From Phoronis australis (Eukaryota > Animalia > Phoronida): DNA of 64,000 bases. Shown in pieces: positions 40,201-52,200 of the stretch. The stretch spans positions 62,001 to 126,000 of the forward strand of contig NMRA01000063.1 in NCBI GenBank assembly GCA_002633005.1, given 5' to 3'. Both the position numbers and the translations under genes were made by a program. The notes under the pieces were generated by a model. That model was not told where the DNA came from, ran no database searches, and saw only the letters and a list, made by a program, of their open reading frames with translations. Each line of letters begins with the position of its first letter. Within the stretch, counting starts at the first letter, position 1.

Positions 40201-43200
40201 GCTATGAGCTATAATGGTATGTTATTGATTGTACGGATCGGTATTACAGACTCTGTCAAAGGGCTATGCTAAGCAGTGTTGGGTGTCATCTGAATTGCAT
40301 TTAAAAGACTGCAATTTGCCTAAGTTAATTTGAATTAAAAAATGATGACTGAGTGATATTTTTTAAATTATTTTATATAGTTTACTTTGACTGGCCATTT
40401 AGCCCACTCAAATCCTCAACCCTCCATTGACACACAGTTCACTAATGTAATTCTGTGCTCCTGTTGGCCACTTGGTTCTTCACACATCTCCCATTGGTCC
40501 ACAGCTCAGACTGACCTTGATTTCGAACTGGAGTACAACATCCATTGTGGTATTGCACACACTCGCTGGGCCACTCATGGTGAACCTAATGCTGTCAACA
40601 GTCACCCTCAACGTTCTGGACCAAAGAATGAATTTGTTGTTGTGCACAATGGTATCATCACAAACTACAAAGATGTGAAACTGTTCCTGGTCAGTCAGTA
40701 ATTGGGTTAATGTTGAATTTAATTTGCATAGATTTATTTTTAACTGCCATCCAGACAATAGATTATCTAAGCTTTGCTGCATTTAACCCTAACAAAAATT
40801 TGCTCTGATAAAAGCAATCTCTATTCTGGTAGGATTCTATTTCTGTTTCCGACAAGAACGTTGAAACCATCAGCGACTCTAGAGAATGCTAACCCTAAAT
40901 TTCGAATTCAAAAATGCAGTGTGTACATATTGCTTAGGATTTTTAGTGGGCAGCTCGTATGGCATCCATTCTAGATGAGATGGATGTGGTAATGATTTTA
41001 AGCCGCTGTGCTTTGGTAATTATTCAGCATTGACAGCTAAACACTATCGAAATGTCCTGTAAAGTAATCTGGTAATACTCATTATTTTTTATGTACTTGT
41101 ACATTTTGACTAAGTAGTCAAGGCTATGGGCCAGAACTATTTAGTAAGGTTTAGCACAGACTAAAAATCTAAGCTGTGTTGTGGCTTTACCACTTGGCTC
41201 ATTCATGTTTGAGTTTGTTTATTATGGATCTTAACATGTAATTATTTCAGCTTGTGGGCATGGTTTCAATTCTGCAGGTGTATTGTTGAACCAGTTCCCT
41301 TTAATGTTGGATATGTGCCCTGATCTGTTTGCAGGAAAAGAAAGGGTTTGTTTTTGAGTCAGAAACCGATACGGAGGTGATTGCTAAACTCATTAAGCAC
41401 ATTTATACGGAACACGAGAACGAGGGTGACCATGTGACTTTCAGGCAGCTGGTGGAAAAAGTCGTTCAACATTTAGTAAGTCTTTTTAGGTAGTCAGATT
41501 TGTTTTTACTCTATCCATTTTTCGATAATCCAAGAAAACCTGTTTGATGTAAATGATGATTAATGTCTGTTGTAGAACAAAGCCAACAAATGTAAACTTG
41601 TCGGCCATTTTGTGTGAGCTGGTTACACATCTATCCAACCTCTCAGCATCCTTTCTTAGTCTCTTTTATCAAAGCTGTTCCTCCAATCATAGCTTAGAGT
41701 GTCATTAACAGCTTAATGCACAACAAAGGATTACAGCTGAAATAAACAGTTACTGTGAATGCATTGTCAACTAGGAACAAGGATTGGGTGTTGTAAGAAA
41801 TAGTATCATTTGTTGGAAATTGGTCAATCTGACTTGGGAGTTTATATACTTCAAGAGCTCATTTCAAGTGTACTCTGTTTTAAGTGTACTCTGTTTTACA
41901 GGAAGGAGCCTTTGCCTTGTGCTTCAAGAGCTCGTTTTATCCAGGAGAGTTGGTGGCCACCAGGTTGGATTTTCTTTTGGATGTTAACTATTTCACAAGT
42001 TTGACTACAGGCAGTCATTTCAATACTGTCAATCTTGACCATATAGTAAAATTATATTTTTCTACTAAATTGAGTTCAATGAAACCTTTAAATTTGTTGA
42101 TTGTGACAACTATGGCTAATAATGCTTGTAGATGTTTTCTTGTTTATGCCATGTAGACCTATTAAAAGTTTGCTTTTCAATGGTGTAGTAAAATTTAACT
42201 CATTACATTGTCGAGAGTTGCCTGTTTCTTGCCAGACGTGGTAGCCCCCTGCTGATTGGAGTGAAGACGGACACGAAACTAACCACTGACCACATCCCTG
42301 TGCTGTATAGCAAAGGTATGTGACATTAATCCAGGAACCTCTGACAAAATACTTTGTTATACAAGCTACGTTGTTAGTCATTGTGAAGCATCTGAGATGC
42401 AAGTGTAGTTTTGTGAAGGGTTTAGAATACCGTGCACTGTTGCACACTGCTATGAAGATTAATCCATTGTTGCATTTTGCATGTTTTTTTCATATAAGTG
42501 TGAATGCGATTCTAGAAGTTGATGAAAAACTAGCAATATCTTGCTCTTTGGTGTACTTTTCATGGCGCTTTGCGAAAATGGCAAAAAGGATTTCAAAACA
42601 GCTTTTCCAGAATTTTATTAATATTATTTTCAACTGCTGATTGATTTTGTTGAACTTTCCAACTTTTCACATCACCTTGTACTAGCTTTTTGCATGACTT
42701 GTGGTAGAATGGTTACTTTTGCATGTCAAGTTCCTCTGTTGGAAAAGGCTTATTCCTGGTGGCATGGGCCTGTGTACATTTTAACTGCCTGCATTGTTTT
42801 TCAACTTATTTTGTATTTTGTATTTGGTATTTCTTTACTGCATGTTGTGTAGTCTTAATTCATTTATATGCGCCCACATATTTATATGTGGAGACATTGT
42901 GCCATCATCCCTGTCCGTCCCGTGTCCTGCATCAGCTACTCTATCTTCTTTGATGTAAGTTCATGAAATTTTGCACATATGGTCCTTTCATAGATGAGAC
43001 GGATCCAACTACTGGTGTGCCCCCTAGTGACAATTTTAGTTTTTATGTTTACCTCTGTATCTTCAAAGGTTCTCAACGGAATTTTATAAAATTAAGCAAA
43101 TAGGTATCTATTAGGGAGCTGACAGCACCTTCCCATTTTCGGATGGATTCCAGGTATTTTGTGCCACCTACTGGCCATTTTTATGCGCCCACATATTTAT

Positions 43201-49200: not shown

Positions 49201-52200
49201 AAATTTGGAAGTTAGGCATCTATTATTGAGATGATGCCATCCTCCCGTTTTCGGACGGAATCAAGGTATTTTGTGCCACCTAATGGCCATTTTTACTGTT
49301 TTTTTGGCATCCGCCATTCTATCAACTAAACTGCTCTAGGAATGATTTTGGAAATTAGCATAATTATATGTTCTTACTGTGAAGAGGGCGACTGACGATG
49401 ATTTTTCTACGATTTCGACAACTGTGGCGCCTCCTAGTGGCATTTTTGTTTGTTTTTGCGCCCATGGTGGTATCTCCTAAACCTTTCACAGGATCTTAAT
49501 GAGATTTGGCAGATATGTTCCCATGAAGGCGACCACAGATGACAACGAATTTCGGACCTCTCCGACTACTGGTGTGCCACCTAGTGGCAATTTTATTTTT
49601 TTATGCTTACCTCAGTCTGTAGATTTGGAGGTCCGCAACGGATTTTCATAAAATTTGGCAGTTAGACATCTATTAGTGAGATGATGCCATCTTCCTATTT
49701 GGGACGGATTCGGGTACTTTGTGCCACCTAGAGGTCATTTTTACTGTTTTCGAGTCTGTTTTTTCGCGTCCGCCGTTCTATCTACTAAACCGCTCTAGGT
49801 ATGATTTTGAAAGTTGGCATATATGTTCTTACTGAGAAGAGGGTGGCTGACAATTATTTTCCGATGACTTAGAATACTATGGCGCCTCCTAGTAGCAGTT
49901 TTGTTTGTTTTTGCGCCCATGGCTGTATCTCCTAAATGCTCTACAGGATCTTTGTTGAATTTTGCTGGTGTATTTATATGAAGTTGACTTCAGAGGATTA
50001 CGACTTTCGGACGGATCGGGCTACCAGTGTGTCCCCTAGTGGCAATTTTAGTTTTTTTGTTTACCTCAGTCTGTATCTTAAAAGATCATCAATGGATTTT
50101 CATAAAATTTGGCAGTTAAGCATTTATTAGTGAGGTTACACTATCGTCCGGTTTTCAATAAATTTCGAGGCAATTTGCGCCACCTTGTGGCCATTTTTTA
50201 CTGTTTTCAAATCTTGTTATTTGACGTCTACCTTTGTGTCAACCAAACCACTCTAAGGATGGTTTTGGAAATTGGCATTTATGTTCCTAATGGGAAGAAG
50301 AACGACGATAATTTTTCGACGACTTCATCTACTTTGGTGCCTCTTTGTGGCAGTTATGTTTTTTGCGCATATAGCCTCTTAGTGGCAATTTCATTTTTTC
50401 ATTTTCCTTTATTTTCTCAGAAGTTCCTTGACAGATTTTTATGAAATTTGGTAAATAGCTTTGATGACACATACAAGTTCTCAGATGGATTTGACATATT
50501 TTGTGCCATCCAGTTGCAAAGTTTTATGTTCCAAATACACCCCTAGAAGCACAACGTTAGCGGTGCATTTGTGGGCGCATTTCAATGCTCAGCGTTGCTA
50601 TTGTTGTGAAATTTGGCAGATAGGTTTCTATTAAGGGGTCAACGATGTCTCTCCATTTTCGGATGGATTCAACGTATTCTGCTCCACCTAGTGGCCATTC
50701 TTTATTATTCGGAGTTTGTTTTTAGCATCCACCTCTTTATCCGCCAAACTGCTCAAAGGTTCATTATGAATTGTAGCAGTTGTGTTCCTGATGATAAGAC
50801 CATGGCTAGCAATGATTTGACATTTGTGGCATTCCTTAGTGATTCCTTTTCAGGATATTTGGGAACTTTTGCAGTTGTTTTCCTATAAATGTGAGAATGG
50901 CTGCCCTTGACTTTTTGGATGAATATAACTACTGCTGTGCCTCCTTGTGGCAATTTTATTATTTTTTTACCATTGCCTCTGTATCCGGAGAGTTCCTGTA
51001 TGAAATTTGGTAAAGAAATTTCTCTTATAAAGACAATAGTACCTTTCATTTTGAGAAGGATTTGACGTATTCTGCACCACCAAGTGACCATTTTTTAATT
51101 GTTTTTTTTTTGCTGTCTGCTTCTGTACTTGCCAAACCACTCAAAGGATCATCATGAAAATTGACAGAAAACTGACAAGAGCATGACTGGCGTGGATTTT
51201 CAGATGGGTCCAACAGTTTTGACTCTCCTTCGTGACATTTGTTTGCTTCTATGGCTATATCTACCTTGCAAGATCACAATTTGGCAAGTGTTTTCCAATG
51301 AACTTGACAAAAGATTGATGGATTCAACCATTGTACTTCCTAATAGCAACTTTTTTACGTTTGCCTTCGTATCTGTGGAATTCTTTGGCATATTTTCAAG
51401 AAGTTAGGCAAATAATTTGTTTTGTAGAGACGACAGCACCTTTCCAACTTTGGATGGGTTTGACATATTCTACACTACTTAATGGTCATATTTTTGATTT
51501 TAAAAAGCACTCCTAGTAGCACACCACTTGTATGCTGTGGACTCAGCTCAATGCATTTCAATGCATTTCAATGCATTTCAATGCATTTCAATGCTCTGCA
51601 TTGCTCTTGTTTCTTTTCTGCTTCCGGTGTGCTTATGGGATTATGTCAATGGTTTTACAATGCTTCAAAGTAGCCTTTGCTTTTAGTTTTTTTTTTACAC
51701 ATTTGAACTTGTTGCTTGTGTTGAAATAACTGTGAATGGTGTGTGAAGCTTTTGGCTCACTAGTGTTGTGTGCAACTAAAATATGGTTTGGAGTACATTG
51801 AATTTGCTTTTGCCATGCTTGGTTGACTACCTTTGCCTATAAAATTTATTACATTAGTTTTGTAACCAGATCATTTATTTGGAAATACAAAATACTTTGT
51901 GACTTATATCAGTCCTAGTCAGCGGTTTGATACGTTATGCATGTGATTTAGTGGTTTGATACGTTATGCATGTGATTTAGTGGTTTTGGCTGAAGGTAGC
52001 TGAAGGTAGAGGTGAAGTGTACAAGATTTCTTGTAAACGTCCTCTTTATTCTGATAGCTCTACAATTTTCTTAGAAGATTCGCAGATTGGCAGCATCAGA
52101 TGCCATTTTTCTAATTTACTGTGGTTAAGCAATAGTAACTTTAGGCATAATTCAATAACTATTTGAGAAAGAAATTCAAAGCTTGATTTACTATATGGTT

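What the first reader, a model, noticed from the sequence alone, without database searches (positions are those of the whole stretch)
42864..51611. Helentron-like elements carrying phased, co-oriented arrays of CTCF-like motifs around a microexon
Seen: each ~145-160-bp monomer holds a best-conserved core such as gcgccacctagtggcc, gtgccccctagtggc or gcgcctcctagtggc. I count ~19 by hand in 42.9-46.1 kb, a similar or larger number in 47.5-51.6 kb and ~8 in 16.6-17.8 kb, all on one strand. Three monomer types alternate as a ~445-bp higher-order unit. Established: the CTCF consensus reverse complement is GCGCC(C/A)(C/T)CT(A/G)GTGG. Inference: a mobile element spreading arrays of potential insulator sites at roughly nucleosome spacing; here the arrays flank the 15-nt microexon, where CTCF-induced Pol II pausing could affect inclusion. 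Whether this family is already described needs a database search.
Basis: partly seen in the sequence, partly recalled or inferred. Interest (0 to 1): 0.78.

Follow-up and report, generated by a model that had tools for sequence, protein, structure and literature searches.

The report
Rolling-circle transposon carrying CTCF-site arrays
Small rolling-circle jumping elements nested in the introns of an invertebrate sugar-metabolism gene carry a close match to the docking site of the genome-folding protein CTCF in nearly every internal repeat, kept intact mainly while the elements multiply, so the site likely serves the element itself rather than the nearby candidate micro-exon, though binding is untested.

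Summary
There are 43 same-strand CTCF-type motifs (8+18+17), mean pitch about 148 bp, in an A-B-C unit of about 450 bp. They lie in non-autonomous Helentrons (HINEs: subTIRs, GTCC microsatellite, 3' hairpin, T-run targets) nested in introns of the GFAT gene of a probably lophotrochozoan animal. The motif far exceeds shuffled controls, and the three monomer types differ only at low-information CTCF positions. Substitutions shared between copies are about 8-fold depleted in the core, while private ones are little or not depleted (O/E 1.07; 0.65 on tree tips). The constraint therefore acts mainly on replicating element lineages. One unexpected result: stranded RNA reads this family 97-99% in one direction, from many loci, against 58-63% for other repeats. 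In this window that direction is host-sense, so the motifs face the promoter. A microexon link is weak. Small variable exons at this GFAT junction occur across molluscs, a brachiopod and arthropods, two other small exons here are not flanked by arrays, and inclusion of the 15-nt exon was not shown. HINEs with repeats of this size are known; my searches found no CTCF-array HINE in print. Binding is untested.

The parts
42862..46330 (+). HINE nest 1 (outer 5' end 42862-42868; 3' ends at 44078, 46127, and a decayed one near 46330); 18 minus-strand CTCF-type motifs
42868..42897 (+). 5' subTIR with its short inverted repeat (hairpin) of the outer element, followed by a GTCC-type microsatellite
43178..44078 (+). 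Youngest nested HINE, inserted in the T-run just after a type-B motif; subTIRs 43183-43193 and 44043-44053, 3' hairpin 44056-44070; holds the N gap and a non-array stretch at about 43748-43960
43629..43747 (.). Assembly gap (119 N) inside the array
44615..46127 (+). 5'-truncated HINE with about three A-B-C units; relative of the copy at 16.6 kb
47533..51611 (+). HINE nest 2 (decayed 5' ends near 47537 and 48372-48420; 3' end 51611); 17 minus-strand CTCF-type motifs
48952..50605 (+). Complete nested HINE (subTIRs 48958-48968 and 50570-50580) with three A-B-C units, inserted in a T-run just before a monomer's AAATTTGG box
16575..17811 (+). HINE copy in the presumed GFAT intron 1, 8 motifs; inserted into another repeat whose empty paralogue lies at 10138-11134; 5' end clipped by a ~150-bp deletion
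42236..42315 (+). GFAT exon upstream of the small-exon cluster
   Evidence: RNA joints; tblastn
47057..47071 (+). Candidate 15-nt frame-preserving microexon (AG/GTAAGT) between the nests; inclusion not directly seen
52590..52598 (+). Candidate 9-nt microexon (AG/GTAAGT), not flanked by arrays
53217..53246 (+). Candidate 30-nt exon; its read-depth bin is raised in 2 of 3 RNA runs, marginally in the third
54241..54352 (+). GFAT exon downstream of the cluster
4102..4108 (+). Candidate GFAT exon 1 (start codon plus donor), which would place all three arrays inside the gene
   Evidence: motif search; not confirmed by reads

Best explanation
These are nested non-autonomous Helentron-type (HINE) transposons whose ~150-bp internal repeats each carry a CTCF-type motif that is conserved mainly along the replicating element lineages, likely because bound CTCF would keep donor copies open, unsilenced and able to be copied, with the candidate microexon probably a bystander. 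Shown: HINE anatomy, insertion into T-runs including those of earlier copies, motif quality, lineage-level conservation, and 97-99% one-direction reading of the family in RNA. Inferred: mobilisation by an unseen Helentron RepHel; co-orientation as a by-product of targeting the T-rich strand; CTCF binding; the benefit to the element; and that transcribed copies genome-wide are almost all host-sense, through transcription-linked insertion or purging of opposite copies.
For: Ends and targets. The insert at 43178-44078 splits a monomer at its T-run, and the 16.6-kb copy has a paralogous empty T-run. Motif. Between types A, B and C, 0 of 8 high-information columns differ and 6 of 11 low-information columns differ (Spearman -0.61, p=0.005), while three-way identity outside the motif is only 52 of 117 columns. 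Conservation: non-CpG G/C substitution rate 13% in the core against 25% in flanks, and 27 of 50 monomers score >=17 against a neutral-simulation mean of 11.0, maximum 21 in 2000 runs. Shared variants occur in 2 of 26 core G/C columns against 67 of 118 flank columns. Shared O/E is 0.12, below all 105 non-overlapping offsets (minimum 0.52); singleton O/E is 1.07 (95% CI 0.72-1.53). On trees, internal-branch changes are 1 against 13.8 expected. Types A and C break the perfect palindrome of type B yet keep the CTCF match. RNA. CTCF orthologues exist in molluscs and annelids, and its motif is the commonest in annelid open chromatin (PMC10658182, PMC7854359, passages).
Against: No binding, chromatin or transposition data. 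The host's CTCF gene and an autonomous Helentron could not be looked for because no genome is held. The PWM is vertebrate and recalled. The sample is small and related (36 monomers on trees, one locus). Terminal-branch changes are also reduced (34 against 52.6, P=0.004), so some constraint after insertion is possible; internal-branch expectations are inflated because the trees were built from flank sites. A/T core positions show no lower total substitution rate (p=0.40). One non-CTCF 14-mer in monomer C is as conserved as the cores. The RNA result rests on three libraries of one study.
Confidence: 0.5

Rival explanations
1. The conserved core is a cis signal for the transposition or repeat-amplification machinery (RepHel zinc fingers, another host factor, or a GCC-N7-GGC mini-hairpin around CTAG) and only resembles a CTCF site.
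For: Constraint on replicating lineages is predicted equally well. All three cores keep CTAG and a weak hairpin (-1.6 to -4.2 kcal/mol). Oyster HINE monomers also share two conserved segments (PMC7492417, passage).
Against: Variation between types falls only on low-information CTCF columns, consensus scores are 23.5-25.8 of a maximum 30.4, and column-permuted matrices never come close. HLE2 ends do not use the CTRR signal (PMC4067079, PMC11417382, passages).
Confidence: 0.2
2. Host filtering: only copies whose motifs are intact and face the promoter are tolerated in genes (promoter-facing loop anchors or polar Pol II effects), so both motif and orientation are shaped by selection on the host.
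For: 97-99% one-direction RNA from roughly 20 or more loci; all three arrays in the window are GFAT-sense; tip branches show some depletion; T-run asymmetry (52-67% for most run lengths) is too small to explain the bias.
Against: Singleton decay of the motif is near neutral. Orientation could come from insertion into the non-template strand with no selection at all.
Confidence: 0.15
3. One reading: the arrays have been exapted at this locus, and CTCF-induced Pol II pausing or looping tunes inclusion of the 15-nt GFAT microexon.
For: The arrays bracket the exon; a strong motif lies 957 bp downstream, near the ~1 kb range in PMC8373115. The region is alternatively spliced: the all-skip joint has 6, 3 and 8 reads against 42, 21 and 45 for the upstream joint.
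Against: Variable short inserts at the same junction occur in Mytilus, Haliotis, Ruditapes, oysters, Lingula, Homalodisca, Tachypleus and the insect Bacillus. The motifs nearest the exon downstream are among the more decayed (scores 8.8, 6.8, 7.0). A similar array sits in intron 1 with no small exon noted. Private decay is near neutral.
Confidence: 0.08
4. No selection: the founder captured a genomic CTCF site, and the apparent conservation reflects gene conversion, a mutational cold spot or small-sample phylogenetic noise.
For: The copies are non-independent and come from one window; another 14-mer is equally conserved.
Against: The dip is centred on the motif in three types only 60-68% alike; private mutations hit the core at the usual rate, so it is not a cold spot.
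Confidence: 0.07

Closest known systems
HINE / DINE-1, non-autonomous Helentrons (HLE2) (PMC4067079: abstract, Background, first third of Results read; PMC11417382: passages)
   Same: subTIRs, 5' inverted repeat, microsatellite, central repeats, 3' stem-loop, T-rich targets with no clear target duplication
   Different: Central repeats form a three-type higher-order unit with a CTCF-type motif per monomer; autonomous partner not seen
Cg_HINE elements of the Pacific oyster (PMC7492417: parts 1-2 of 7 and passages read; figures and supplements with the monomer sequences not seen)
   Same: Short satellite-like arrays (monomers 138-181 bp) in fixed orientation between HINE flanks, GTCC-type microsatellite, conserved segments among divergent monomers
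   Different: The search listing shows 0 mentions of CTCF in that paper. Whether oyster monomers hold the motif was not tested, and no sequence comparison was made
B2 SINE and other retrotransposon waves of CTCF sites (Schmidt et al. 2012, PMC3368268; title seen in a reference list only; content recalled)
   Same: A mobile element spreads CTCF motifs
   Different: One site per retroelement in mammals; here arrays of 8-18 sites in a rolling-circle DNA element of an invertebrate
gypsy Su(Hw) insulator array; DXZ4 and DXPas34 CTCF tandem repeats (recalled; DXZ4 and DXPas34 papers seen only as search listings)
   Same: Tandem, co-oriented insulator-protein sites; gypsy carries its array inside a mobile element
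   Different: Different protein or a fixed locus; not rolling-circle elements
Helitron-linked chromatin features: Helitron-derived PATC insulators in C. elegans (bioRxiv 10.64898/2026.08.08.743475, passages) and Helitron-marked sperm loops in Xenopus (Shi et al. 2023, title only)
   Same: Repeats carried by Helitron-like elements are linked to insulation or loops, possibly kept for the element's own persistence
   Different: PATCs act through DNA mechanics in a species without CTCF; the Xenopus paper could not be read, so any CTCF content there is unknown to me

Membership tests
HINE / non-autonomous Helentron (HLE2) | 11-15-bp subterminal inverted repeats, near the 5' end and tens of bp from the 3' end | tested here: met
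   11-bp exact pairs 43183-43193/44043-44053 and 48958-48968/50570-50580; the 3' copy ends about 25 bp from the terminus, closer than the 38-60 bp in mite HINEs
HINE / non-autonomous Helentron (HLE2) | Short inverted repeat beside the 5' subTIR | tested here: met
   5' hairpins fold at 3 of 3 intact 5' ends tested
HINE / non-autonomous Helentron (HLE2) | 3' stem-loop near the end | tested here: met
   6-bp stems at 44056-44070 and near 46105-46119; weaker or alternative folds at the other two ends folded
HINE / non-autonomous Helentron (HLE2) | Microsatellite after the 5' module and central tandem repeats | tested here: met
   GTCC runs after the 5' ends and A-B-C arrays
HINE / non-autonomous Helentron (HLE2) | Insertion in T-rich (T|T) sites without target duplication | tested here: met
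   Nested insertions split monomer T-runs; 3' junction of the 16.6-kb copy matches a paralogous empty T-run; assignment of terminal Ts is ambiguous, as in the literature
HINE / non-autonomous Helentron (HLE2) | Dispersed multi-copy family | tested here: met
   Three sites in the window; RNA reads leave both ends into diverse flanks, agreement 0.39-0.43, about 20 or more loci by simulation
HINE / non-autonomous Helentron (HLE2) | Autonomous RepHel(-EN) partner with the same ends | not testable with these tools
   No genome held
Canonical Helitron (HLE1) | 5' TC, 3' CTRR, insertion between A and T | tested here: not met
   Ends begin with a T-run then ATG and finish in TTGTT, in T-runs
Functional CTCF site / insulator array | Strong match to the CTCF core motif | tested here: met
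   (recalled matrix)
Functional CTCF site / insulator array | Purifying constraint on the motif | tested here: met
   Met for shared, lineage-level changes; inconclusive for resident copies (O/E 1.07 singletons, 0.65 tree tips)
Functional CTCF site / insulator array | CTCF gene in the host and CTCF/cohesin occupancy, insulation or nucleosome phasing | not testable with these tools
   No genome and no ChIP, ATAC or Hi-C data among the 8 runs listed
CTCF-regulated alternative exon | Exon included in mRNA and dependent on a nearby bound site | tested here: inconclusive
   Only the all-skip joint was displayed (about 14-18% of neighbouring joints); the 15-nt exon was not resolved

The most novel reading that the evidence does not exclude
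A rolling-circle transposon family that depends on host CTCF for its own spread and inserts almost only in the direction of host transcription, so that it seeds genes across a spiralian genome with polar, promoter-facing arrays of CTCF sites: a mobile, self-selected loop-anchor cassette that could rewire gene-level 3D folding and co-transcriptional splicing in a clade where CTCF's role is unresolved.
Probability: 0.2. Interest if true: 0.85.

Novelty: new variant of a known kind. Interest (0 to 1): 0.56.

Why it matters
Transposons are known to scatter single CTCF sites, and HINEs are known to carry repeats of about 150 bp. This family joins the two, and the pattern of conservation points to selection on the parasite rather than the host. 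That offers a testable reason why HINE central repeats have conserved boxes. The near-total strand bias in RNA predicts strand-aware targeting or purging, a direct handle on the poorly known integration step of Helentrons. It also supplies many natural, oriented CTCF arrays for asking whether spiralian CTCF works directionally, which a 2023 review lists as open (PMC10658182, passages).

Tried and rejected
No whole genome is held, so copy number, genome-wide orientation, host CTCF and an autonomous partner were not tested. The run search listed no RNA holder; this blank is not evidence, and raw RNA runs of the same species label were laid instead. An element poly(A) signal was rejected as the cause of the strand bias: an AATAAA lies at 44005, but depth at 44000 is 664 in X6 while 637 reads run on past the 3' end. 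Truncation of antisense transcripts was also rejected: the first antisense signal lies about 230 nt inside, yet antisense reads at 44000 are 10, 5 and 3 against 664, 609 and 796. T-run asymmetry is 52-67% (91% only for 11 runs of 7 or more), too small. An internal promoter is not excluded, but no start cluster was listed at the 5' end and 211 reads in X8 enter from diverse upstream flanks. The AAATTTGG box looked best conserved, but that was an alignment-end artefact; its O/E is 0.6-1.5. No upstream (M2) CTCF extension was seen by eye. A 74-nt candidate exon near 46462-46535 has an in-frame stop and no read support shown; not pursued. The metagenome scan gave 2 loci, chosen by the motif itself and with no BLAST similarity to the window, so they are weak support. 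Ten paper searches listed no report of CTCF-motif arrays in Helentron/HINE elements or of a HINE sense bias; I judged most rows by title and abstract start only. Dfam and Repbase were not available, and subscription papers such as Shi et al. 2023 are not held.
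Full report
Setting. The window holds most of a GFAT (glutamine-fructose-6-phosphate aminotransferase) gene on the + strand. Exons were placed by tblastn and by RNA joints. The best matches to one exon are 79-82% identical proteins of gastropods, a brachiopod and annelids, so the host is probably a lophotrochozoan (inference). No genome is held.

Observation. A CTCF matrix (JASPAR MA0139.1, recalled) finds 8, 18 and 17 minus-strand sites at p<1e-4 in the three arrays, against shuffle means of 0.35-1.2. 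At score >=17 there are 29 sites on one strand against 1 in the other 55 kb, and none of 2000 column-permuted matrices reaches 5 hits. Monomers fall into types A, B and C, 60-68% alike, in a unit of about 452 bp (TRF period 455). Mean motif spacing is 147.7 bp. An N gap at 43629-43747 makes the counts minimum values.

What the elements are. Each has an 11-bp subTIR with a short inverted repeat, a GTCC microsatellite, the central array, the second subTIR and a 3' hairpin. These are the defining features of HINEs in PMC4067079 (Background and first part of Results read), PMC7492417 (parts 1-2 and passages) and PMC11417382 (passages). The two long arrays are nests. The element at 43178-44078 splits a B monomer at the T-run right after its motif, the one at 48952-50605 splits another monomer at a T-run, and the 3' junction of the 16.6-kb copy matches an empty T-run in a paralogous repeat at 10.1-11.1 kb. 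The arrays are T-rich on one strand (AT skew -0.21), so insertion into T-runs would by itself give co-orientation (inference). Monomers at matching positions of different elements group together on trees, so arrays are copied whole.

Is the motif under constraint? Monomers picked with the motif masked (50 kept, 2 chance alignments dropped) keep higher scores than a neutral simulation: 27 score >=17 against a mean of 11.0 and a maximum of 21. The three types differ at 0 of 8 high-information CTCF columns and at 6 of 11 low ones, while only 52 of 117 columns outside the motif are identical in all three. Splitting substitutions by kind is informative. Variants shared by two or more copies occur in 2 of 26 core G/C columns against 67 of 118 flank columns, and their O/E of 0.12 is below all 105 non-overlapping offsets. 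Private variants occur at the usual rate: 30 against 28.0 expected, CI 0.72-1.53. On trees built from flanks, internal changes are 1 against 13.8 expected and tip changes 34 against 52.6. The tip deficit counts against a purely neutral fate after insertion, although tips also hold unsampled lineage history, and the internal expectation is inflated by how the trees were built. Results against: A/T core positions are not lower in total rate, one non-CTCF 14-mer is as conserved, and the sample comes from one locus. The net reading is that the motif is kept mainly in copies that go on to replicate.

RNA. Three stranded libraries of one study read GFAT exons on one strand only. Reads of this family, mostly from other loci (up to about 2500-fold deep on the youngest copy), are 97.1-99.4% in the same direction, older copies included (96.8-98.3%). 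Other repeats at 24.9-36.9 kb give 58-63% overall, with single bins from 22% to 94%. Reads leave the 3' end, and in X8 enter the 5' end, through diverse flanks (agreement 0.39-0.43, about 20 or more loci by simulation), which fits host read-through. Poly(A) signals and T-run asymmetry do not account for the bias. I infer that transcribed copies are nearly all host-sense. The CTCF motif then lies antisense and, by the vertebrate convention (recalled), faces the promoter. Insertion into the non-template strand, purging of opposite copies and selective decay of antisense RNA are all open.

Microexon. The 15-nt candidate (47057-47071) has good splice signals and keeps the frame, as do 9-nt and 30-nt candidates further on. 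The joint skipping all three has 6, 3 and 8 reads against 42, 21, 45 and 33, 19, 58 for its neighbours. Most transcripts therefore include something here, but which exon was not resolved. Short variable inserts at the same junction are found in bivalves, gastropods, a brachiopod and arthropods, so the cluster is likely far older than these insertions. The nearest strong motifs are 1017 bp upstream and 957 bp downstream. A CTCF effect at that range is reported for human cells (PMC8373115, passages), so it is not excluded, but nothing here favours it. A 148-bp pitch cannot hold a nucleosome and CTCF between every pair of sites (own knowledge), and this monomer size is typical of oyster HINEs.

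Mechanism and odds. HINE identity: about 0.95. True CTCF binding: about 0.6. Motif kept because it helps donor copies stay open and mobilisable, as a selfish insulator: about 0.5 overall. Rivals are a transposition signal that mimics CTCF (0.2), host filtering (0.15), microexon control (0.08) and noise (0.07).

Novelty. HINEs with central repeats, transposon-borne CTCF sites and tandem CTCF arrays are each known. Ten searches of the held library listed no HINE with CTCF arrays and no HINE sense bias. Dfam/Repbase, the oyster monomer figures and supplements, and Shi et al. 2023 were not seen and could change this. Two metagenome loci from unidentified hosts hold one such motif beside AAATTTGG boxes in HINE-like context, a hint that the design recurs, but they were selected by the motif. 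Earlier notes of this scan describe self-nesting HINEs and other CTCF-bearing transposons in other genomes; these are unchecked leads, not support. Verdict: new variant of a known kind, interest 0.56.

Noticed in passing
42746-46119 and 47566-51421 (RNA lay) against 24900-36879: This HINE family is read 97-99% in one direction in stranded RNA from many loci, while other repeats are read 58-63%; unexplained by T-run asymmetry or poly(A) signals.
   Followed up: partly
47057-47071, 52590-52598, 53217-53246: Cluster of three frame-preserving small exon candidates in the GFAT glutaminase-domain loop; relatives have many isoforms varying here. It recalls the muscle-specific exon of human GFPT1 (recalled, not tested).
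   Followed up: partly
43748-43960: Non-array stretch inside the youngest element, covered about 900-1000-fold in RNA, so shared by the subfamily; possibly captured sequence.
   Followed up: no
46951-46969: Lone plus-strand CTCF-like match (score 10.9) about 90 bp upstream of the 15-nt candidate exon, outside the elements.
   Followed up: no
36771-36789, 53110-53128, 25440-25458, 52253-52271, 63611-63629: Isolated CTCF-like matches (scores 14.6-19.1) outside the arrays; the one at 63611 lies in a GFAT coding exon.
   Followed up: no
10138-11134 and 16021-18063: Two inverted copies of another repeat family; the second is interrupted by the HINE and has lost about 150 bp.
   Followed up: yes
35419-35700: Short open frames with a Cys/His-rich motif (minus strand) resembling a transposon-derived gene remnant; read on both strands in RNA nearby.
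   Followed up: no
whole window: Many young minisatellites in introns (units 17-82 bp, 87-99% matches), e.g. 18898-20458, 54510-55116, 60756-61164.
   Followed up: no
L001:1499-1589, L002:1290-1680: HINE-like repeats of unidentified hosts with AAATTTGG boxes (160 and 166 bp apart in L002) and one strong CTCF-type motif; L002 has a 39-bp near-perfect inverted repeat.
   Followed up: partly
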